DNA from: Alphaproteobacteria bacterium
GTDB taxonomy: Bacteria; Pseudomonadota; Alphaproteobacteria; JAQWUY01
NCBI GenBank assembly: GCA_965276005.1
Contig: OZ254962.1
Coordinates: 2,564,455-2,628,454, forward strand
Direction of reading: 5' to 3'
DNA length: 64,000 nucleotides
Shown: positions 18,837-30,744 of the stretch, piece after piece
Numbering within the stretch: position 1 is the first letter of the stretch
Layout of the letters: each line of letters begins with the position of its first letter
Translations under genes and position numbers: made by a program
Notes under the pieces: model-generated
What the model was told of the DNA's origin: nothing
What the model saw: only the letters and a program-made list of their open reading frames with translations
Databases searched by the model: none

Positions 18837-19976
18837 TTATGGTGTAAATCGGGTTGGTAAAAACGCTGGCATCATTGGATGCACCACCCCATCACAGATA
18901 AGATCTGCCATAATTTTACCGGTGGCTGGTGCCAATAATATACCATTTCTGTGATGACCGCTAGCAATATATACATTATTTAGCGGGGTGTTACCTAATA
19001 TGGGGGCGTCGTCCCGGGCGGTGGGGCGGTGTCCAACCCAGATTTTATCGATTGTCAAATCTTCAATAGCCGGGCATATCCGCCATGCGGATTCGAGCAA
19101 TGCGTATATCCCGCCGGCGGTGTTGTCGTCATTAAAGCCTTGTTCTTCCACCGTTGCCCCAATCAGCAATGTGCCATCTAGTTTGGGGATTAAATAGGTT
19201 TTTGGTGCCCATACCACTGTGTTTATCAGCCGATGTGGCATTTTTAACGACAGCATTTGTCCTTTTAAGGGGCGAATGGGAACAGACATAATGGGGTTGA
19301 GAACAGCCGGTGTGTGTACCCCCGCACAGACCACAATCGAATCGCAACGGTGTGTTGTCCCGTCCGCTAATGCTACCCCGTGTGCACTGTCGTTGTTGTG
19401 TGCTATGGAGGCTACGGGGGTGTTCTCAAAAATATCCCCGCCCAATTTTTGTATGGCGGTGGCAAGGGCGGTGGTCAGGCGGACGCTGTGCACTTGGTAA
19501 TCGGTTTTACACCACATACCGCCCACTGTTTTTAGGTGCGGTTCCATTTTGTCGATGTCCCGTGCCGATAACATTTCTACTTCGACGCCGATTTTTGTTT
19601 GGTATTCGTATAAAAACCGCACGGTGTTTAAATCGTCTTGTGTGCTGGCAACCATCATGGTGCCATCGGTCTGATAGTCGATCGACACTCCAGAGAGGTG
19701 TTCGAGATCCCGGGCATATGTATCCCACAGCGATTGGGCGTACTGGGACAACTGCCAAAGATTGCGTTCGCTGGGTTCGTTTTCGATGCCGCCCGCCAGC
19801 ATCCCCCCAGATTTATCGGTTGCCCCGCTGCCGATGCTAGCGGATTCGAAAACAGTCGTGTGCACACCTCGTTGTTGTAACGCATATGCCACCGCCAGCC
19901 CACAAATACCGCCACCAATAATACATATATGGTGTTTGCTGTGTTGTTTCATGGCACCAGTATACAAAAAAAACAA
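18837..19976 (-). CDS. thiO: Glycine oxidase ThiO (FAD-dependent)
   Basis: ICIIGGGICGLAVAYAL Rossmann motif. TTG at 19976 or ATG at 19952 as start. Confidence 0.82.
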   Translation of the reverse strand: MFFLYTGAMKQHSKHHICIIGGGICGLAVAYALQQRGVHTTVFESASIGSGATDKSGGMLAGGIENEPSERNLWQLSQYAQSLWDTYARDLEHLSGVSIDYQTDGTMMVASTQDDLNTVRFLYEYQTKIGVEVEMLSARDIDKMEPHLKTVGGMWCKTDYQVHSVRLTTALATAIQKLGGDIFENTPVASIAHNNDSAHGVALADGTTHRCDSIVVCAGVHTPAVLNPIMSVPIRPLKGQMLSLKMPHRLINTVVWAPKTYLIPKLDGTLLIGATVEEQGFNDDNTAGGIYALLESAWRICPAIEDLTIDKIWVGHRPTARDDAPILGNTPLNNVYIASGHHRNGILLAPATGKIMADLICDGVVHPMMPAFLPTRFTP

Positions 19977-20283
19977 GGGGAAATCTATATCCTTTATATC
20001 GAATCGAACAGGGGCGGACGGATTATATACACCCTGTGTGGCAAAATAATGCCTCGTAATGTCCGTCGATATTTTGCGTTATTGGGTACTTTTAATGTTT
20101 GATTTTTATCGATTCGATTTTTTGTATGCCTTTTAATGTCTGTGTAATATCTGGATTTATAGGTTTATACATAAGATTTTCGACAGCCAGTACGATTTGT
20201 TTGTCAAGTACAAAAAACAAGATTTATGTATTTTTTTCTATTGTCAAAAATCTCTTGTTCATATATGTTTAGGGTCAGTCATA

Positions 20284-20328
20284 GCACTATATATGGTACA
20301 GAGTTGGAAATGGTACACTATATAGGCA
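20284..20328 (+). promoter_or_regulatory. Two NrdR-box-like sites (gCACTATATATGGTac and gtACACTATATAGGca), 30 bp apart, upstream of nrdA
   Basis: Resemble the NrdR consensus acaCwAtATaTwGtgt, and the tandem ~3-helical-turn spacing is typical of NrdR operators. They lie ~250 bp from the nrdA start, which is unusually far. Confidence 0.35.
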
Positions 20329-20571
20329 TAATATCAGACAGTTAAACGATATCAGTGAGATTCGGTACGGGTTGGTCGAACCTGTGGCGGTGGTGCGAGT
20401 TGTTCGAGCCAGCGGTCGTGGTAGTCAAGTCGGTAGTCTGTGGTTGTCAAGTCAATGGTCTTGGTGGTCAAACTAGTAATGGTAGGTGGTATTGTGTCTG
20501 CGAGGATACGGTATTATTAAGGAGTAGCTATAAGCTTTGTTTTTAGTGAAAATGGAGTTTGCATAATATGT

Positions 20572-23271
20572 ATGGAGTGGGATAAGGGTATGGATTTATC
20601 GACAATTAAGGTCATAAAACGCAACGCAGAACAGGTACAATTTAACAATGACAAGATCGCCAGTGCTGTAAAAAAAGCGTTTATGGCGGTGGTGCACGAA
20701 TCGGATGCAGATATTTCGCAACAGCAACGGGTACAGATTGCCGATGCGGTGACCGATATTACAGATGCGGTCAGCAAGCGGTTGTCGGTAAATGCCCAGC
20801 ATGGCGGGGTGATATTTTTAGAAGACATCCAAGACCAAGTGGAACTTGCCCTGATGCGTTCGGGTGAATACGAGGTTGCCAAAGCCTTTGTATTGTACCG
20901 AGAACAACGGGCAAGACAGCGCCAGCAATCGGAAAAATTGCAGGTCGCTATGGGTACCAAAGTGGCATCGATGCAGGTGGTAAAACGGGACGGCAGCAAA
21001 CAAGCGGTTAGCCTCGATAAAATCACCAATCGGGTACGGGCGTTGGCACATGGGCTCGACACCGACCCCATTGTAGTCGCACAAAAGGCGGTTGCCGGCT
21101 TGTTTGATGGCATCACCACTGAGGAAATCGATACTTTTTTATCGGAAACAGCGGCGGCGTTGACGGTGGAAAATCCAGATTATTCCTATGTCGCCGCTCG
21201 TATTAAAGTCAATGCCTTACACAAACAAACAAATGGCTTTATCGCCGCCACCCACGCTTTATATCGAGACGGATTGTTGCATGATAGCTATTACAATATG
21301 GTTGTCGACAATGCGGATGCTATTGCTGCGATGATCGATTATGAACGGGATTATAATTTTGATTACTTTGCTTTAACCACCTTGATTAAAGCCTATTTGT
21401 TACGGGTTGACGATGTGTATGTGGAACGCCCACAAGATATGTTTATGCGTACCGCTTTAACCTGCGGCTGTGGTGAGGTGTTCGATGCGGATGCGGTGGC
21501 AAACACTTACGATATGATGGCAAACGGCTACTATACCCACGCCACCCCCACTTTGTTTAACAGCGGTTTGAAAATGCAGCAGCTGTCGTCTTGTTTCCTG
21601 ATTTCTATGGAAGACGATTCCATTGAGGGTATTTTTAACACCATTAAAGATTGTGCCTTGATTTCTAAGACAGCGGGGGGGATTGGCTTACATGCCCACA
21701 ATATCCGGGGGGCGGGGTCGCTTATTAAGTCCACCAACGGCAAATCAAATGGGTTGATTCCATTTTTAAAAATCTTTAACGAAACCGCTCGTTCTGTCGA
21801 TCAAGGCGGCGGCAAACGCAAGGGGTCTTTTGCGGTGTATTTGGAACCGTGGCATACGGACATCGAAGCGTTTCTGGAACTACGAAAAAACACCGGTGCC
21901 GAAGAGTTCCGGGCAAGGGATCTGTTTTATGCCCTGTGGATTCCCGACCTGTTTATGCAGCGGGTAGAAGCCGATGCCGATTGGACTTTGCTGTCGGAAA
22001 ACGATTGTCCCGGCTTGTGTGATACATACGGGGCAGAATTTAACACACTGTACGAAAAATACGAACAACAGGGGTGCGGTAAAACCATCAAAGCCCGTGA
22101 CCTGATGGCAAAAATTATCGAAGCCCAAATTGAAACCGGGCAACCGTATATGTTGTATAAAGATTCGATTAACGCAAAGTCGAATCAAAAAAATATTGGC
22201 GTGATTAAATCGTCGAATCTGTGTGCGGAAATTGTTGAATATTCTGACAGCAAAGAAACAGCGGTGTGTAATTTGGCGTCTATAGCCTTGCCTAAATGTA
22301 TCGATAAACACGGGGCGTACGATTATCAAAAACTGTATCAAGTGTCCCGTTTGGCAACCCGTAACTTAAACCGGGTCATCGATGTGAACTATTATCCAAC
22401 CGCAAAAACCGAGCGATCTAATCTCCGTCATCGCCCCATTGGTCTAGGTATACAAGGGCTTGCCGATGTGTTCTTTAAAATGCACATCGCCTATGACAGC
22501 GACACTGCCCGGGATATAAACAAAAAGATTTTTGAAACCATTTACTTTGGGGCAATAACCGAAAGTATGGAAATCGCCAAAGTCGACGGACCGTATGAGA
22601 CCTTTGCCGGATCGCCCATATCGCAGGGACAGTTCCAATTCGATATGTGGGGGATAACCCCATCCGGTATGTGGGATTGGGACTCTTTACGGGCAGATGT
22701 GCAAAAATATGGCGTACGCAATTCCTTAACCACCGCCTGTATGCCGACCGCATCGACGGGGATTATTTTGGGCAATACGGAAACTTTCCAAGTGCAGACT
22801 TCGAATATTTATAAACGCCAAACTTTGTCGGGGGAATTTTTGTTGGTCAATCGCTACTTGGTAAAAGACTTGATGCAGCGGCAGCTGTGGACAAAAGAAA
22901 TGCGGGACACTATCATTGTCGAAGACGGGTCGATTCAAAATATCCCAAACATTCCCGATGAAGTCAAACAGGTGTATAAAACCGTGTGGGAAACTTCACA
23001 GCGGGTGGTTATCGACATGGCGGCGGATCGCAGTCCGTATATCGACCAAACCCAATCGATGAATCTGTGGCTGGCATCGCCGACATTTTCACAGGTGGGA
23101 TCGATGCATATGTATGCGTGGAAAAAGGGCTTAAAAACCGGTATGTATTACTTGCGATCCCGTTCGGCGGTAAATGCGGTACAAATGACCGTATCCAATC
23201 CTGCCGATAGCCAAACCACACATACCATGAGTAATGATGAACTAGAGGATTGCTTAACATGCAGTGCTTGA
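20572..23271 (+). CDS. nrdA: Class Ia ribonucleotide reductase alpha subunit NrdA (ATP-cone + catalytic domain, C-terminal CxxC tail)
   Basis: ATP-cone VIKRNAEQVQFNNDKIASAV, NxCxE-type catalytic region (SSNLCAEI), C-terminal DCLTCSA. An alternative start is at 20590. Confidence 0.95.
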   Translation: MEWDKGMDLSTIKVIKRNAEQVQFNNDKIASAVKKAFMAVVHESDADISQQQRVQIADAVTDITDAVSKRLSVNAQHGGVIFLEDIQDQVELALMRSGEYEVAKAFVLYREQRARQRQQSEKLQVAMGTKVASMQVVKRDGSKQAVSLDKITNRVRALAHGLDTDPIVVAQKAVAGLFDGITTEEIDTFLSETAAALTVENPDYSYVAARIKVNALHKQTNGFIAATHALYRDGLLHDSYYNMVVDNADAIAAMIDYERDYNFDYFALTTLIKAYLLRVDDVYVERPQDMFMRTALTCGCGEVFDADAVANTYDMMANGYYTHATPTLFNSGLKMQQLSSCFLISMEDDSIEGIFNTIKDCALISKTAGGIGLHAHNIRGAGSLIKSTNGKSNGLIPFLKIFNETARSVDQGGGKRKGSFAVYLEPWHTDIEAFLELRKNTGAEEFRARDLFYALWIPDLFMQRVEADADWTLLSENDCPGLCDTYGAEFNTLYEKYEQQGCGKTIKARDLMAKIIEAQIETGQPYMLYKDSINAKSNQKNIGVIKSSNLCAEIVEYSDSKETAVCNLASIALPKCIDKHGAYDYQKLYQVSRLATRNLNRVIDVNYYPTAKTERSNLRHRPIGLGIQGLADVFFKMHIAYDSDTARDINKKIFETIYFGAITESMEIAKVDGPYETFAGSPISQGQFQFDMWGITPSGMWDWDSLRADVQKYGVRNSLTTACMPTASTGIILGNTETFQVQTSNIYKRQTLSGEFLLVNRYLVKDLMQRQLWTKEMRDTIIVEDGSIQNIPNIPDEVKQVYKTVWETSQRVVIDMAADRSPYIDQTQSMNLWLASPTFSQVGSMHMYAWKKGLKTGMYYLRSRSAVNAVQMTVSNPADSQTTHTMSNDELEDCLTCSA

Positions 23272-23495
23272 ATACATATAACACAGTAGAAAGAAGGTCG
23301 AAAAAATGATTCTTAACAGTCATGCCAAACTAGGGGATTGCTTAATATGCAGTGCTTGAATACATATAACACATTAGAAAGAAGGTCGAAAAAATGATTC
23401 TTAACAGTTGTGCCAAACTAGGGGATTGCTTAATATGCAGTGCTTGAATACATATAACATAGTAGAAAAAAGGTCGAAAAAATGATTTCTAAGGG
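23247..23495 (+). repeat. Three tandem 88-bp repeats spanning the nrdA stop and nrdB start. Each unit carries the nrdA 3' end (DCL[TI]CSA-stop), a ~40-nt spacer and the nrdB RBS+ATG
   Basis: Units at 23247, 23335 and 23423 (period 88) differ by ~4-6 substitutions each. Copies 1 and 2 contain 17-codon mini-ORFs MILNSHAKLGDCLICSA. Confidence 0.9.
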
Positions 23496-24477
23496 GTGTA
23501 CTTCTATTTTTCCTTTGCAGTATCCGGAAATTTGGGATCGCTATAAGCTGCATGTGCAATCGTTTTGGACACCGGAAGAGGTGTCGTTTCAAGACGATTT
23601 ACGGGATTTACAAAAATTGGGCGTGGGTGAAAAACGCTTTATCAATCATGTGCTGGCGTTCTTTGCCAATTCGGAGGCAATGATTAACGAAAACTTAGCA
23701 TCTAGGTTTTATAAGGAAATTCTTATTCCAGAGGCACGGGCGTTTATATCGATGCAGATGTTAAACGAAACCATTCATGCCGAGACCTATGCGTTGCAAA
23801 TTGAAACCTATGTGCCGAACCAAGCGGAAAAAGACCAGCTGTTCGACGCTATCGAAAATGTCCCTTGTATCCACAAAAAAGCCCTGTGGGTGGGTAAGTG
23901 GCTGAGTGGCAAACAAAACTTATTAACCCGTCTTATCGGTTTTGGCTTGGTCGAGGGGTTGTTTTTTGCCGGCTCTTTTTGTGCCATTTATTATTTTCGC
24001 AAACGGGGATTGTTGCCGGGACTGGCGTTAAGCAACGACTGGATCGCCCGTGATGAAGGCATGCACTTTAGTTTTTCTGCTCTGATGTTTCGGACTTTGC
24101 GGCAAAAATACCTAAAGGGCACCCTTGACGATACCATGTTATCTGATGTAAACCTGATTTCTGGCGATGTGCCACAACAGGAATTTGAGCACATCGTACG
24201 GGAGGCACTGGAGTGCGAAAAAGAATTCGTGCGGGACGCTCTGCCCGTAGATTTAATCGGTATGAATGCGGACTTAATGTGCCAATACATCGAAGCAGTT
24301 GCCGATCGCATTGCCGATTTATTCGGCTTCGACCGGGTGTTTCACACAGAAAACCCATTCGACTTTATGCGGGCATTAGATGTGCAGAATGTGACCAACT
24401 TTTTTGAAAAGAGAGTATCCGAATACCAACGCCCCACAAACCGAGATTTATCGTTTAACGAAGACGAAGATTTTTAA
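23482..24477 (+). CDS. nrdB: Class Ia ribonucleotide reductase beta subunit NrdB
   Basis: Ferritin-like di-iron ligands (EAIHAETY, ...EGLFFAGSF...), 331 aa. Confidence 0.95.
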   Translation: MISKGCTSIFPLQYPEIWDRYKLHVQSFWTPEEVSFQDDLRDLQKLGVGEKRFINHVLAFFANSEAMINENLASRFYKEILIPEARAFISMQMLNETIHAETYALQIETYVPNQAEKDQLFDAIENVPCIHKKALWVGKWLSGKQNLLTRLIGFGLVEGLFFAGSFCAIYYFRKRGLLPGLALSNDWIARDEGMHFSFSALMFRTLRQKYLKGTLDDTMLSDVNLISGDVPQQEFEHIVREALECEKEFVRDALPVDLIGMNADLMCQYIEAVADRIADLFGFDRVFHTENPFDFMRALDVQNVTNFFEKRVSEYQRPTNRDLSFNEDEDF

Positions 24478-24492
24478 CAGACAGGATATATA

Positions 24493-25416
24493 ATGATGGG
24501 TGTATCAGAGAAAAACAGTTTTGGGCTTCGTAATGGTAAAAAAATTTATCACGGGTATAATGACGAACGCAAGGTAAAAGATAGAAAAGCTAAAGAAAAA
24601 ACAAGGCTTGGATATGAGTCATACGCAAAAGATTTTGAAAGAATCACGCATACTTTACCCGATAGCTATTTGAATTCCATTGTCTGTGGGGACAGTTTAG
24701 AAGTTTTAAAAAACATGCCAAATAATTGTATCGATATTGTGATGACTTCTCCTCCATACAATTTTGGGCTAGAATATAATACCCATTCGGATACGGACAA
24801 ATGGCATGACTATTTTGATATGTTATTTGCTATATTCGACGAATGTATTCGGGTGTTAAAATATAGCGGTAGAATAATAGTCAATGTGCAACCCCTGTTT
24901 TCTGACTATATTCCCACACATCATATAGTCAGCAAGCATTTTTTGGATAAAGGCTTAATTTGGAAAGGGGAAATACTTTGGGAGAAAAACAATTATAACT
25001 GTAAGTACACAGCATGGGGCAGTTGGAAGAGCCCAGCAAGCCCATACTTAAAATATACATGGGAATTCTTAGAAGTGTTTTGTAAGGGACATTTAAAAAA
25101 GAAAGGCGATAGTGGGAATATTGATATAACGGACGAAGAATTTAAAAAATTTGTCGTCGCCAAGTGGTCGATCGCCCCAGGACGGGATATGAAAAAATAC
25201 GGGCACCCCGCTATGTTTCCCGAAAAGTTAGTAGAAAGATGCCTTAAATTATTTAGTTTTAAAGGAGATATTGTGTTAGATCCTTTTAATGGCGTGGGAA
25301 CAACGACTTATGTTGCCAAATCTTTAAAAAGAAGCTATGTCGGGATCGATGTGTCCAACGAATATTGTATTACCGCACAAAATAGAATAGACAGCATGCA
25401 GCAGGAGTTGTTTTAA
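24493..25416 (+). CDS. Beta-class amino-DNA methyltransferase (motif IV SPPY before motif I FNGVGTT), probably N4-cytosine
   Basis: IDIVMTSPPYNFG ... HPAMFPEKLVERCLKLFSFKGDIVLDPFNGVGTT. AT-rich gene, 4-bp overlap with the downstream ORF. Confidence 0.85.
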   Translation: MMGVSEKNSFGLRNGKKIYHGYNDERKVKDRKAKEKTRLGYESYAKDFERITHTLPDSYLNSIVCGDSLEVLKNMPNNCIDIVMTSPPYNFGLEYNTHSDTDKWHDYFDMLFAIFDECIRVLKYSGRIIVNVQPLFSDYIPTHHIVSKHFLDKGLIWKGEILWEKNNYNCKYTAWGSWKSPASPYLKYTWEFLEVFCKGHLKKKGDSGNIDITDEEFKKFVVAKWSIAPGRDMKKYGHPAMFPEKLVERCLKLFSFKGDIVLDPFNGVGTTTYVAKSLKRSYVGIDVSNEYCITAQNRIDSMQQELF

Positions 25417-25417
25417 A

Positions 25418-26113
25418 ATGACCGTAAAAAATATCGATGCGATAATACAATATTATGAAAGTGTTGTGAAAACAGCAGATCAGACCGCCGAACATAATAA
25501 AGATCGGGCGTATGGTGGGTTTGTTCGAGCGACTAAAGGTGTGATGTTGGAAAATATAACAGAAAGTCTTATAAAAATAGCATGGCAAGAATTAGCAGCA
25601 GATGAAGGCAGACTGGTTATAAATAAAACAAAAATAAATATCCCCATTGTACAAGATTATATAGACAATATGCAAGATAATGAGATAAAACAATATATTC
25701 AAAAAAACATATCGGACTATACATTTAAATGTTCTGTCGATAAACATGTATACATCGATAACACATTTGTGTTGGCTGTAGAATGTAAGGCATATGCTGA
25801 AAATGCCATGTTAAAAAGAATATTGGTTGATTTTCATTTGCTTAAAACTATGCACCCAGATTTGCAATGTGTTTTGTTGCAACTGGAAAGTCAATTAGGC
25901 GGGGATTATGCACAGCTTGCTAAAAATCCTTTTGGGTCTAAGCCATCGCATACGCTTATGTCGTATTTTAATTTACAAATTTTAACCTTGCTTAAGGGTG
26001 AGAGAAAGGTAGATAGACCTATATACAAACCTGAGTATTACAAACCTTTATCAAAAACAAGGGTGCAGTATATTAAAAGTGAAATGAAACAATTACTAAC
26101 ACATTATTTATGA
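25418..26113 (+). CDS. Putative Type II restriction endonuclease (PD-(D/E)xK-like: D...ECK)
   Basis: Translationally coupled to the methyltransferase, and its ...VDKHVYIDNTFVLAVECKAY core fits D-x(n)-E-x-K. No other homology is recognisable by eye. Confidence 0.5.
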   Translation: MTVKNIDAIIQYYESVVKTADQTAEHNKDRAYGGFVRATKGVMLENITESLIKIAWQELAADEGRLVINKTKINIPIVQDYIDNMQDNEIKQYIQKNISDYTFKCSVDKHVYIDNTFVLAVECKAYAENAMLKRILVDFHLLKTMHPDLQCVLLQLESQLGGDYAQLAKNPFGSKPSHTLMSYFNLQILTLLKGERKVDRPIYKPEYYKPLSKTRVQYIKSEMKQLLTHYL

Positions 26114-26123
26114 GGAGAAGATC

Positions 26124-26378
26124 ATGCAATTTATTATATATTCAAAAGACAACTGTCCAAATTGTGAAAAAGCAAAAGCCCTAGTAATGGGGGCAGGACA
26201 TACACCACAGATTAAAAAATTAGGCGAAGATATTAGCCGAGAGGCATTTTTCGCCCGCTTTAGCAACGCCAAAACCCTACCACAAATAGAACTAAACGGC
26301 GAACACATCGGCGGTTTTTCCCAGCTAGAACAAACGATGGCAGAAAAAAAATTACACTTCGATAATGACGATTTTTAA
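26124..26378 (+). CDS. Glutaredoxin/NrdH-like small redoxin (CPNC active site)
   Basis: 84 aa, MQFIIYSKDNCPNCEKAKALV... thioredoxin-fold N-terminus, downstream of nrdAB. Confidence 0.7.
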   Translation: MQFIIYSKDNCPNCEKAKALVMGAGHTPQIKKLGEDISREAFFARFSNAKTLPQIELNGEHIGGFSQLEQTMAEKKLHFDNDDF

Positions 26379-30069: not shown

Positions 30070-30744
30070 ATGCACGCAGAAGTTATTACAGTCGATACGC
30101 TATCTATCGCCAAAAGGTTACAAGCCTCTGGTATAATCGAGGAGCATGCGAAAGCTATTGCCAATGAACAGGTAAACACGATAAATGCGAATTTGGCTAC
30201 TAAGGGTGATATTGAACAGTTTCAAGCCGAGACCAAAAAAGACATTAAATGGTTGCAATATGAGACCAAAAAAGACATTGAATTGTTGCAATCTGAGATC
30301 AAAAAAGATATTGAATTGTTGCAATCTGAGACTAAAAAGGACATTGCCAATATCTATAAAGAGATCGAGCGGTTTCAAATGGAGACCAAAAAAGATATTG
30401 CCAATATTCATAAAGAGATCGAACGGTTTCAAGCGGAAACTAAAAAAGACATTGAACGGTTTCAAGCGGAGACCAAAAAAGACATTGAACGGTTGCAAGC
30501 GGAGACCAAAAAAGATATTGCCAATATTTATAAAGAGATCGAACGGTTTCAAGCGGAGAGCAAGAAAGACATTGAACGCATGCAGGCTGAAAACAAAAAA
30601 GACATCGAACAGCACCGATTCGATACTACAAAGGATATTCGGATTGCCATGTATAAGACAGCTGGTTTTACGATTACCAGCATTGTAACCTTGTTGACCG
30701 TTATTCAAATTGTTATTGTGATATTGACACCGGTTGGGTCATAA
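30070..30744 (+). CDS. DUF1640-like coiled-coil membrane protein with tandem 11/18-aa repeats (ETKKDIE[R/L][F/L]QA...) and C-terminal TM helix
   Basis: N-terminus DTLSIAKRLQASGIIEEHAKAIANE typical of DUF1640; repeats are also tandem at the DNA level (33/54-bp units, 30229-30600); GGGGA RBS before the ATG at 30070. Confidence 0.55.
   Translation: MHAEVITVDTLSIAKRLQASGIIEEHAKAIANEQVNTINANLATKGDIEQFQAETKKDIKWLQYETKKDIELLQSEIKKDIELLQSETKKDIANIYKEIERFQMETKKDIANIHKEIERFQAETKKDIERFQAETKKDIERLQAETKKDIANIYKEIERFQAESKKDIERMQAENKKDIEQHRFDTTKDIRIAMYKTAGFTITSIVTLLTVIQIVIVILTPVGS

What the first reader, a model, noticed from the sequence alone, without database searches (positions are those of the whole stretch)
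23247..23495. 88-bp triplication of the nrdA-stop/nrdB-start junction creating mini-ORFs that encode the NrdA CxxC tail
Three tandem units each contain the last codons of nrdA (DCL[TI]CSA-stop), a spacer and the nrdB RBS+ATG. Copies 1 and 2 therefore encode 17-aa peptides (MILNSHAKLGDCLICSA) that fuse the nrdB start to the NrdA redox-active C-terminal Cys pair, and nrdB lies two repeat units further downstream. This could affect translational coupling of nrdB or produce decoy tail peptides, or it may simply be a recent duplication scar.
Basis: seen in the sequence. Interest (0 to 1): 0.6.

Follow-up and report, generated by a model that had tools for sequence, protein, structure and literature searches.

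The report
Variable repeat between nrdA and nrdB
The 88-base junction between the two ribonucleotide reductase genes has been copied head to tail, and the copy number differs between two strains (2.8 versus 5.8 copies). Every copy can still be translated, so it is most likely a tolerated variable repeat with no shown function of its own.

Summary
An 88-bp unit repeated 2.8 times (window 23240-23487, 95% identical) separates nrdA (20572-23271) from nrdB (23482-24477). It creates two 17-codon ORFs that join nrdB codons 1-7 to the last 10 codons and stop of nrdA.

It is neither an assembly artefact nor a simple recent scar. A second contig of the same species (98.5-99.4% identical, identical NrdB) has 5.8 copies. 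Two of its units are older and have lost the first Cys of the CxxC motif. Their distance from the parent sequences (JC 0.35) is about 20 times the divergence between the two strains (dS 0.012-0.019).

In 78 related Alphaproteobacteria the nrdA-nrdB spacer is single-copy, 9-74 nt. Here it is 210 nt in the window and 474 nt in the second contig.

Each unit also carries a second, out-of-frame 16-codon ORF whose stop overlaps the next start codon (ATGA). Together the two ORFs cover the whole spacer.

I found no RNA structure, Rfam family, promoter or terminator in the array.

Best reading: a lineage-specific variable-number tandem repeat (VNTR) formed by junction duplication and unequal recombination. 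It is tolerated because each unit rebuilds nrdB's native translation context. The peptides are probably by-products. Evidence for selection is weak (P about 0.03-0.05, post hoc). The closest analogue is the mycobacterial MIRU repeat at senX3-regX3. Interest is modest.

The parts
20572..23271 (+). nrdA, the class Ia ribonucleotide reductase large subunit (899 aa). Its C-terminus is ...DELEDCLTCSA*. The last 10 codons plus the stop are the parent of the 3' part of each repeat unit.
   Evidence: ORF list. Pfam PF02867, PF03477 and PF00317. The tail Cx2CSA* is conserved in 78 relatives.
23240..23327 (+). Repeat unit 1 in the TRF register. It holds the native nrdA end, the 34-nt spacer with the SD, an ATG, and a diverged copy of nrdB codons 1-7.
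23328..23415 (+). Repeat unit 2, a type A unit.
23416..23487 (+). Repeat unit 3, partial. It runs into the genuine nrdB start.
23306..23359 (+). Mini-ORF a1, 17 codons plus stop: MILNSHAKLGDCLICSA. It is an nrdB-start / nrdA-tail chimera.
   Evidence: Translation in register. SD duplex -5.4 kcal/mol, against -3.9 for nrdB.
23394..23447 (+). Mini-ORF a2, 17 codons plus stop: MILNSCAKLGDCLICSA.
23259..23309 (+). ORF-b1, 16 codons (MQCLNTYNTVERRSKK), out of frame. It starts 13 nt before the end of nrdA, and its stop TGA overlaps the ATG of mini-ORF a1 (ATGA).
   Evidence: SD-like GAGGA lies 9 nt upstream, duplex -5.8.
23347..23397 (+). ORF-b2, 16 codons. It starts inside mini-ORF a1, and its stop overlaps the ATG of mini-ORF a2.
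   Evidence: SD-like GGGGA, duplex -6.4.
23435..23485 (+). ORF-b3, 16 codons. It starts inside mini-ORF a2, and its stop overlaps the nrdB ATG (ATGA).
23294..23298 (+). Shine-Dalgarno core AAGGT of unit 1. The same core recurs at 23382-23386 and 23470-23474; the last of these is nrdB's own.
   Evidence: Sequence. Duplex energies. The 18-nt block AAGGTCGAAAAAATGATT is identical in all 9 units of both strains.
23482..24477 (+). nrdB, the ribonucleotide reductase small subunit (331 aa). Codons 1-7 (MISKGCT) are the parent of the 5' part of each mini-ORF.
26124..26378 (+). Glutaredoxin gene (84 aa) downstream in the same orientation. Its product is the likely reductant of the NrdA CxxC tail. It is context only, not part of the repeat.
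   Evidence: Pfam PF00462. It lies directly after nrdB in the sister species.

Best explanation
This is a lineage-specific, strain-variable minisatellite (VNTR) inside the nrdA-nrdB operon.

Origin (inferred from unit anatomy): an ancestral tandem duplication copied 88 bp, made of the last 33 nt of nrdA including the stop, the 34-nt spacer with the SD, and the first 21 nt of nrdB. Unequal recombination or slippage between units then expanded, contracted and reshuffled the array. Units next to nrdA were re-templated from the nrdA end (type A). Older, drifted units sit next to nrdB (type B, seen only in the second strain).

Why it is tolerated (inferred): the duplicated segment is a complete stop / SD / start module. 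Every internal unit therefore recreates nrdB's native upstream context and an in-frame 17-codon ORF. A second, out-of-frame 16-codon ORF ends in ATGA on the next start. The 210-474-nt spacer is thus fully covered by translatable small ORFs, with overlaps of -13 and -4 nt. Ribosome coverage and nrdB's own initiation context are preserved at any copy number.

The peptides themselves are most likely by-products.
For: - The array is real and highly non-random.
- A second contig of the same species (98.5-99.4% nt identity, identical NrdB) has 5.8 units instead of 2.8. All units are exactly 88 bp and there are two unit types.
- All 78 related loci have a single junction with a 9-74-nt spacer, median 15. 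The window has 210 nt and the second strain 474 nt.
- The unit is made of local flank sequence. The 5' 21 nt match the nrdB start (type B 15/21) and the 3' 33 nt match the nrdA end (type A 30/33, type B 23-24/33).
- It has no other copies in the window or in the 81 other fetched loci.
- Age: type B versus parents gives JC 0.35; strain dS is 0.012-0.019; dS to the sister species is above 1.5.
- The mini-ORF SDs are as strong as or stronger than nrdB's (-5.4 against -3.9), and their starts are weakly structured.
- ORF-b is present in all 9 junctions, with an SD-like motif and an ATGA stop/start overlap.
- No alternative function was detected. The RNA fold z-score is +0.85, Rfam gives no match, and no promoter-like or terminator-like site lies in the array.
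- The first Cys of CxxC is lost in type B peptides.
- Literature: coupling falls off with stop-start distance, untranslated RNA invites Rho polarity, and MIRU repeats use coupled small ORFs to insert with minimal effect on expression (PMC12548453).
Against: - There are weak hints that translatability is under selection rather than simply tolerated. In a neutral simulation with the observed 20/88 substitutions, both ORFs stay intact in only 3-5% of trials.
- Type B versus parent gives pN/pS 0.35-0.41, Fisher p 0.02-0.05. This is confounded by purifying selection on the parental genes.
- The 18-nt SD-ATG block is invariant in all units and no unit has an indel. Recombination could homogenise the units, but selection could produce the same pattern.
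- Only two strains are available.
- No expression data exist, and translation of either small ORF is not shown.
Confidence: 0.65

Rival explanations
1. The array is a selected translational relay or rheostat. The two interlocking small ORFs per unit pass ribosomes from nrdA to nrdB by termination-reinitiation, across overlaps of -13 and -4 nt. Copy-number change then tunes the NrdB:NrdA ratio, making this a contingency-type locus in an essential operon.
For: - The spacer is completely tiled by ORF-a and ORF-b, with ATGA overlaps and SD-like motifs.
- Both ORFs are intact even in the old type B units; the neutral expectation is 0.03-0.05.
- The SD-ATG block is invariant.
- The array has persisted for about 20 times the strain divergence and is polymorphic in copy number.
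- A second polymorphic repeat lies in the nrdA leader.
- Small ORFs in intergenic regions, and upstream ribosome-binding sites, are described as promoting or occluding downstream translation in Salmonella and Sinorhizobium (PMC8092293 and PMC13285730, abstracts listed).
Against: - The statistics are post hoc, rest on one independent old lineage, and are only marginal.
- ORF-b is absent from 23 of 25 relatives checked, so it is not a conserved feature of this junction.
- Each start has its own SD, so nrdB may be initiated de novo regardless of the array.
- There are no expression data and only two alleles.
Confidence: 0.2
2. The 17-residue peptides are functional. They would act as free copies of the NrdA redox tail (CxxC), either as decoy substrates for the operon's glutaredoxin or thioredoxin, or as soluble shuttles to the RNR active site.
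For: - Type A peptides keep D-C-L-I-C-S-A, nearly the NrdA tail.
- The tail Cys pair is the known relay between thioredoxin or glutaredoxin and the active site (PMC4078304, abstract).
- A glutaredoxin gene lies in the same gene cluster.
- The SDs are good.
Against: - The older type B units encode DFLTCST, with the first Cys lost, yet they are retained and duplicated.
- Peptide identity to the parent is no higher than in the neutral simulation (P 0.2-0.48).
- The peptide is absent from all relatives.
- I know of no precedent for a free R1-tail peptide acting in trans (my own knowledge; no systematic search was made).
Confidence: 0.05
3. The repeat is an assembly or sequencing artefact, a spurious expansion of a single-copy junction.
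For: No reads could be inspected. Repeats are a classic place for assembly errors.
Against: - The units differ at specific positions (5% divergence), which assemblers do not invent.
- An independent contig from an ENA metagenome assembly shows the same array with additional diverged units, in an otherwise collinear locus 98.5-99.4% identical.
Confidence: 0.02
4. A mobile or interspersed repeat element of the MIRU or REP type inserted at the nrdB start codon and then multiplied.
For: It resembles MIRUs in architecture: an intercistronic position, 88-bp units, small ORFs with an ATGA overlap, and copy-number variation between strains (PMC12548453 and PMC4213456).
Against: - The unit sequence is explained entirely by the flanking nrdA end, the native spacer and the nrdB start.
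- There are no other copies in the 64-kb window or in the 81 other fetched loci.
- The JGI metagenome collection gives no match to the unit core.
Confidence: 0.03
5. The array acts as a cis-regulatory RNA or DNA element, such as a structured attenuator, an internal promoter for nrdB, or repeated protein-binding sites.
For: - The MIRU-containing senX3-regX3 spacer has reported promoter activity (PMC4213456).
- Each unit contains a weak -35/-10-like pair, TTAAYA-17 nt-TATAAC (read by eye).
Against: - The predicted fold is no more stable than shuffles (z +0.85).
- There is no Rfam match even at E<=1.
- The promoter/terminator scan places nothing in 23240-23490. The -10-like hexamer lacks the final T that the scan requires.
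Confidence: 0.05

Closest known systems
MIRU-VNTR (mycobacterial interspersed repetitive units), e.g. the 77/53-bp units between senX3 and regX3
   Same: Both are tandem units of tens of bp sitting between two co-oriented genes of an operon. Copy number differs between strains. Each unit carries a small ORF whose stop overlaps the downstream start codon (-4), which is thought to let the repeat sit there with minimal effect on expression (PMC12548453; PMC4213456).
   Different: MIRUs are interspersed at many loci and appear mobile. Here the unit is built from the local nrdA end and nrdB start and is seen at one locus only. There are two interlocking ORFs per unit, one of them a chimera of the two flanking genes. 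There is no sequence relationship, and the host is an alphaproteobacterium, not a mycobacterium.
Ordinary bacterial minisatellites / VNTR loci generated by tandem duplication and unequal recombination
   Same: Head-to-tail units, variant unit types, and copy-number polymorphism between closely related strains.
   Different: The unit spans a gene-gene junction in an essential operon. Each copy is therefore a full stop/SD/start module, and the array stays translatable.
Intercistronic or upstream small ORFs that modulate translation of the next gene (Salmonella mgtC-mgtB intergenic ORF, PMC8092293; uRBS/uORFs in Sinorhizobium meliloti, PMC13285730)
   Same: Short ORFs with their own SD lie immediately upstream of, or overlapping, the start of a downstream cistron.
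   Different: Those are single, conserved elements with experimental support, and often work by unfolding RNA structure. Here the ORFs are repeated, confined to one species and untested, and no inhibitory structure is predicted.
C-terminal CxxC redox tail of class Ia RNR large subunits
   Same: Type A mini-ORFs end in D-C-L-I-C-S-A, copied from the NrdA tail D-C-L-T-C-S-A. That Cys pair shuttles electrons from glutaredoxin or thioredoxin to the active site (PMC4078304).
   Different: The motif is detached from the enzyme on a 17-residue peptide. The older units have lost the first Cys.

Membership tests
VNTR / minisatellite | Head-to-tail tandem copies of a unit of 10 bp or more | tested here: met
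   TRF: period 88, 2.8 copies, 95% matches. The second strain has 5.8 copies.
VNTR / minisatellite | Copy number varies between closely related genomes | tested here: met
   The window has 2.8 units and L081 has 5.8, in loci 98.5-99.4% identical. Only two genomes are available.
MIRU-type intercistronic repeat | Located between co-oriented genes of an operon, with a small ORF whose stop overlaps the downstream start (-4) | tested here: met
   ORF-b in every unit ends in ATGA on the next start codon. ORF-a does not: its stop is followed by a 34-nt gap.
MIRU-type intercistronic repeat | Interspersed: related units at many loci in the genome | tested here: not met
   There are three matches, all in the array, and none elsewhere in the 64-kb window. 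None occur in the 81 other loci. The rest of the 2.97-Mb genome could not be searched.
MIRU-type intercistronic repeat | Unit sequence independent of the flanking genes (an inserted element) | tested here: not met
   The unit is the nrdA end plus the native spacer plus the nrdB start.
Regulatory leader peptide / attenuator | Alternative RNA structures or a terminator coupled to translation of the small ORF | tested here: not met
   Fold z-score +0.85. No terminator-like site in the array. No Rfam match.
Regulatory leader peptide / attenuator | Conservation of the small ORF across related species | tested here: not met
   All 78 relatives have a single junction of 9-74 nt without these ORFs.
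Class Ia RNR operon (nrdA-nrdB) | Large subunit with ATP-cone, all-alpha and barrel domains; small subunit of the ferritin-like R2 family | tested here: met
   Pfam PF03477, PF00317 and PF02867 for nrdA; PF00268 for nrdB.
Class Ia RNR operon (nrdA-nrdB) | C-terminal Cys pair on the large subunit | tested here: met
   The window has ...DCLTCSA*. Cx2CSA* is present in all 78 relatives.
Functional thiol (CxxC) micro-peptide | Cys pair conserved in all copies | tested here: not met
   Type B units encode DFLTCST.
Functional thiol (CxxC) micro-peptide | Peptide is made and has redox activity | not testable with these tools
   This needs mass spectrometry or Ribo-seq, and enzyme assays.

The most novel reading that the evidence does not exclude
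The array is not a passive repeat. It is a selected, copy-number-variable ribosome relay in an essential operon. Two interlocking small ORFs per unit, with stop/start overlaps of -13 and -4 nt, hand ribosomes from nrdA to nrdB. Strains could then set the NrdB:NrdA ratio by gaining or losing 88-bp units. The CxxC peptides of the younger units might additionally interact with the operon's glutaredoxin.
Probability: 0.12. Interest if true: 0.6.

Novelty: new member of a known kind. Interest (0 to 1): 0.3.

Why it matters
If the best reading holds, this is a clear natural example of why duplicating a stop/SD/start junction has little effect on expression by its very construction. It would explain how a minisatellite can persist inside an essential, stoichiometry-sensitive operon.

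The two strains give a ready-made allelic series, with 2 and 5 internal units. That series could be used to test how stop-start distance, small-ORF relays and Rho polarity affect translational coupling.

Practically, the array is a strain marker for this uncultured alphaproteobacterium. It also shows that gene callers skip such ORFs: none was called in the second contig.

If the relay or peptide ideas were true, the array would be a new way of tuning ribonucleotide reductase subunit balance.

Tried and rejected
- **RNA structure:** the fold of 23230-23520 is no better than shuffles (z +0.85).
- **Rfam:** the whole window at gathering score, and 19900-23600 at E<=1, gave nothing.
- **Promoter/terminator scan:** no site lies in the array. 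By eye, a weak TTAAYA-17-TATAAC pair lacks the final T of the -10 hexamer that the scan requires.
- **NrdR box inside the unit:** ATACATATAACACAG is not palindromic and does not resemble the ACTATATA boxes upstream of nrdA. Rejected by eye.
- **JGI metagenome scan** for the invariant unit core gave 0 hits. A second scan was not spent, because the 5.8-billion-protein search shows no NrdB between 88% and 100% identity.
- **Exact look-ups:** the window NrdA is not on record. Look-ups of the glutaredoxin returned only the same 36.7-kb contig. Only two strains therefore exist in the collections.
- **Cluster look-up** gave no accession or organism name.
- **pN/pS of type B against the chimeric parent** is 0.35-0.41 (p 0.02-0.05). 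I rejected it as evidence for peptide selection, because the parental nrdA and nrdB ends are themselves under purifying selection. Peptide identity is also not above neutral simulation.
- **Simple microhomology origin:** AATGAT occurs in both nrdA and at the nrdB start, but that predicts a 72-bp unit, not 88 bp. Rejected by counting on the sequence.
- **Minus-strand ORFs across the array** are repeat-generated and overlap nrdA and nrdB. I treated them as spurious.
Full report

Yes. Tandem Repeats Finder reports a single array at window 23240-23487: period 88, 2.8 copies, 95% matches, no indels. A 24-mer from the unit occurs three times at 88-nt intervals, against none expected in shuffles.

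The flanking genes are a class Ia ribonucleotide reductase pair.
- nrdA: 20572-23271, 899 aa, with ATP-cone, all-alpha and barrel domains.
- nrdB: 23482-24477, 331 aa, Ribonuc_red_sm.

Read in register, each unit contains three pieces:
- the last 10 codons and stop of nrdA;
- a 34-nt spacer carrying the AAGG(T) Shine-Dalgarno core 8 nt from an ATG;
- 21 nt that follow that ATG.

The two internal ATGs open 17-codon ORFs at 23306-23359 (MILNSHAKLGDCLICSA) and 23394-23447 (MILNSCAKLGDCLICSA).

**2. Where does the unit come from?**

The 3' 33 nt of the mini-ORFs match the nrdA end at 30 of 33 positions. The 5' 21 nt match nrdB codons 1-7 at 12-14 of 21 in the window, and at 15 of 21 in the older units described below. 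The same 21 nt match nrdA in the same register at only 8-9 of 21.

The ancestral event was therefore a tandem duplication of an 88-bp segment. It ran from 33 nt before the end of nrdA to codon 7 of nrdB, and its joint happens to be in frame.

**3. Relatives.**

A protein-guided scan of one genome per species returned 80 loci from uncultured Alphaproteobacteria. The best NrdB identity was 88%. In the 78 loci where both gene ends could be placed, the nrdA-nrdB spacer is 9-74 nt (median 15). None is repeated. The NrdA tail Cx2CSA* and the NrdB start MISKG are conserved throughout. The window's spacer is 210 nt.

**4. A second strain.**

An exact-protein look-up found one further contig, L081/L083 (ENA ERZ26858540, 36.7 kb). 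It encodes the identical NrdB. It is collinear with the window and 98.5-99.4% identical to it, with dS 0.012 for nrdA and 0.019 for nrdB.

Its nrdA-nrdB spacer is 474 nt, holding 5.8 units of exactly 88 bp.
- Three internal units are of the window's type (type A).
- Two, next to nrdB, are a diverged type B encoding MIFNSCAKLGDFLTCST.

The repeat is not an assembly artefact, and it is polymorphic in copy number.

The 5.8-billion-protein search shows only these two contigs for this NrdB and nothing between 88% and 100% identity. A JGI metagenome scan for the unit core found nothing. The sample is therefore two strains.

**5. History.**

Type B differs from the reconstructed parent (nrdB codons 1-7 plus the nrdA end) at 15-16 of 54 positions (JC 0.35). 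The difference is about equal in both halves. Type A has a similarly or more diverged 5' half (JC 0.44) but a nearly fresh nrdA-derived 3' half (JC 0.10). The 5' halves of types A and B are almost identical to each other.

The simplest account, which is inference, has four steps:
- an old duplication produced a proto-unit that drifted into type B;
- later unequal exchanges between the nrdA end and the nrdA-derived part of a unit produced type A units on the nrdA side;
- further unequal crossing-over multiplied both types;
- the window lineage lost the type B units.

The first duplication is about 20 times older than the split between the two strains. It is younger than the split from the nearest sequenced species, for which dS exceeds 1.5 and which has a single-copy junction. 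'Recent scar' is therefore not an adequate description.

**6. A second ORF.**

While checking other frames I found that each unit also holds a 16-codon ORF in another frame, which I call ORF-b.
- It lies at window 23259-23309, 23347-23397 and 23435-23485.
- Its ATG is formed by the ..A-TGC codons of the tail.
- An SD-like GAGGA, GGGGA or AGGAG lies 8-9 nt upstream (duplex -5.8 to -7.3 kcal/mol, in the best roughly 15% of all ATG triplets of the window).
- Its TGA overlaps the next start codon as ATGA.

ORF-b is present at all nine junctions of the two strains, but at only 2 of 25 relatives checked.

Together with the 17-codon ORFs it covers the whole spacer: nrdA, then ORF-b (overlap -13), then ORF-a (overlap -4), then ORF-b again, and so on to nrdB (overlap -4). 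The mini-ORF SDs are at least as strong as nrdB's own (-5.4 against -3.9), and their starts are weakly structured.

**7. What it is not.**

- The array RNA folds no better than shuffled sequence (z +0.85).
- Rfam finds nothing.
- The promoter/terminator scan places nothing in the array.
- The unit has no other copies in the window or in the other fetched loci.

**8. Is there selection?**

- pN/pS of type B against the parent is 0.35-0.41 (Fisher p 0.02-0.05). The parental segments are real gene ends under purifying selection, which by itself pushes the ratio below 1.
- In a neutral simulation, peptide identity is not unusual (P 0.2-0.48) and ORF-a integrity has P 0.09-0.17.
- Requiring both ORF-a and ORF-b to stay intact after the observed 20/88 changes gives P 0.03-0.05.
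- This last test is post hoc and rests on one old lineage.
- The loss of the first Cys in type B argues against a conserved CxxC function.

I read this as no support for functional peptides, and only a weak hint that translatability of the array is maintained.

**9. Mechanism proposed.**

Shown:
- a polymorphic, multi-step 88-bp VNTR derived from the gene junction;
- start signals in every unit that look as competent as nrdB's;
- complete ORF coverage of the spacer.

Inferred:
- each unit is a full stop/SD/start module, so nrdB always sees its ancestral 67-nt upstream context;
- the enlarged spacer stays covered by ribosomes, which avoids loss of coupling and Rho-dependent polarity;
- the array is therefore tolerated at any copy number.

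The review of translational coupling supports the premises. Coupling decays quickly with stop-start distance. Untranslated RNA is a Rho substrate. MIRU repeats are thought to exploit -4-coupled small ORFs to insert with little effect on expression (PMC12548453).

I give this reading 0.65, a selected relay or rheostat 0.2, functional peptides 0.05, and artefact, mobile element or cis-element a few per cent each.

**10. Comparison with known systems.**

The closest analogue is the MIRU-VNTR between senX3 and regX3. That locus has 77/53-bp units whose number differs between strains, and promoter activity has been reported for the spacer (PMC4213456).

The present array works like it in position, polymorphism and the ATGA-coupled small ORF. 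It fails the membership features 'interspersed' and 'element independent of the flanks'. It should be filed as an ordinary VNTR of unusual origin.

The tail motif it copies is the redox-active Cys pair of class Ia R1 proteins (PMC4078304). A glutaredoxin gene lies downstream.

**11. Verdict.**

The feature is real and well characterised: a junction-derived minisatellite, variable between strains, with chimeric and interlocking small ORFs. It is a new member of a known kind. No evidence yet requires a function beyond being tolerated. Interest is modest (0.3). It would rise if the relay or rheostat reading were confirmed.

Noticed in passing
window 23259-23309, 23347-23397, 23435-23485: There is a second, out-of-frame 16-codon ORF in every unit (MQCLNTYN..RSKK). 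It has an SD-like motif 8-9 nt upstream, and its stop overlaps the next start codon (ATGA). Together with the 17-codon ORFs it covers the whole spacer. It is present in all 9 junctions of both strains and in 2 of 25 relatives.
   Followed up: yes
window 20418-20471 (nrdA 5' leader): A 22-bp repeat present in 2.5 copies sits in a G/T-rich leader upstream of nrdA. The window has 43 nt (about two units) more than the second strain L081. The operon therefore carries two copy-number-polymorphic repeats.
   Followed up: partly
window 20284-20331: Two ACTATATA-containing boxes lie 31 bp apart, forming an inverted repeat (20287-20299 / 20313-20325) upstream of nrdA. They look like a tandem pair of NrdR operator boxes. 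This identification is from my memory of the consensus and was not tested.
   Followed up: no
window 24493-26113: A DNA methyltransferase gene (PF01555, 24493-25416) and a 231-aa ORF with no Pfam match (25418-26113) have low GC (0.33-0.39). They sit between nrdB and the glutaredoxin gene (26124-26378). In the sister species (L082) the glutaredoxin gene follows nrdB directly. This is probably an inserted restriction-modification pair, and it is present in both strains.
   Followed up: partly
window 2306-5204: There are long imperfect coding repeats of 201-213 bp, up to 10.8 copies. They probably encode a repeat-domain surface protein. A related large ORF in L083 carries TPS and weak FG-GAP_2 hits.
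   Followed up: no
window 30211-30610; L081 12729-12996: There are 33-bp (11-codon) in-frame tandem repeats, reading roughly KKDIERFQAET.., inside an ORF. BLAST shows shifted self-matches between the two strains, so the copy number may also differ.
   Followed up: no
L014, L055, L066 around 3930-4000 (nrdA-nrdB spacer of OCS116/Hyphomicrobiales relatives): Their longer spacers (65-74 nt) contain a conserved GC-rich hairpin (GGTCAAGGCATATACGCCTTGACC) instead of repeats. This is a different solution at the same junction.
   Followed up: no
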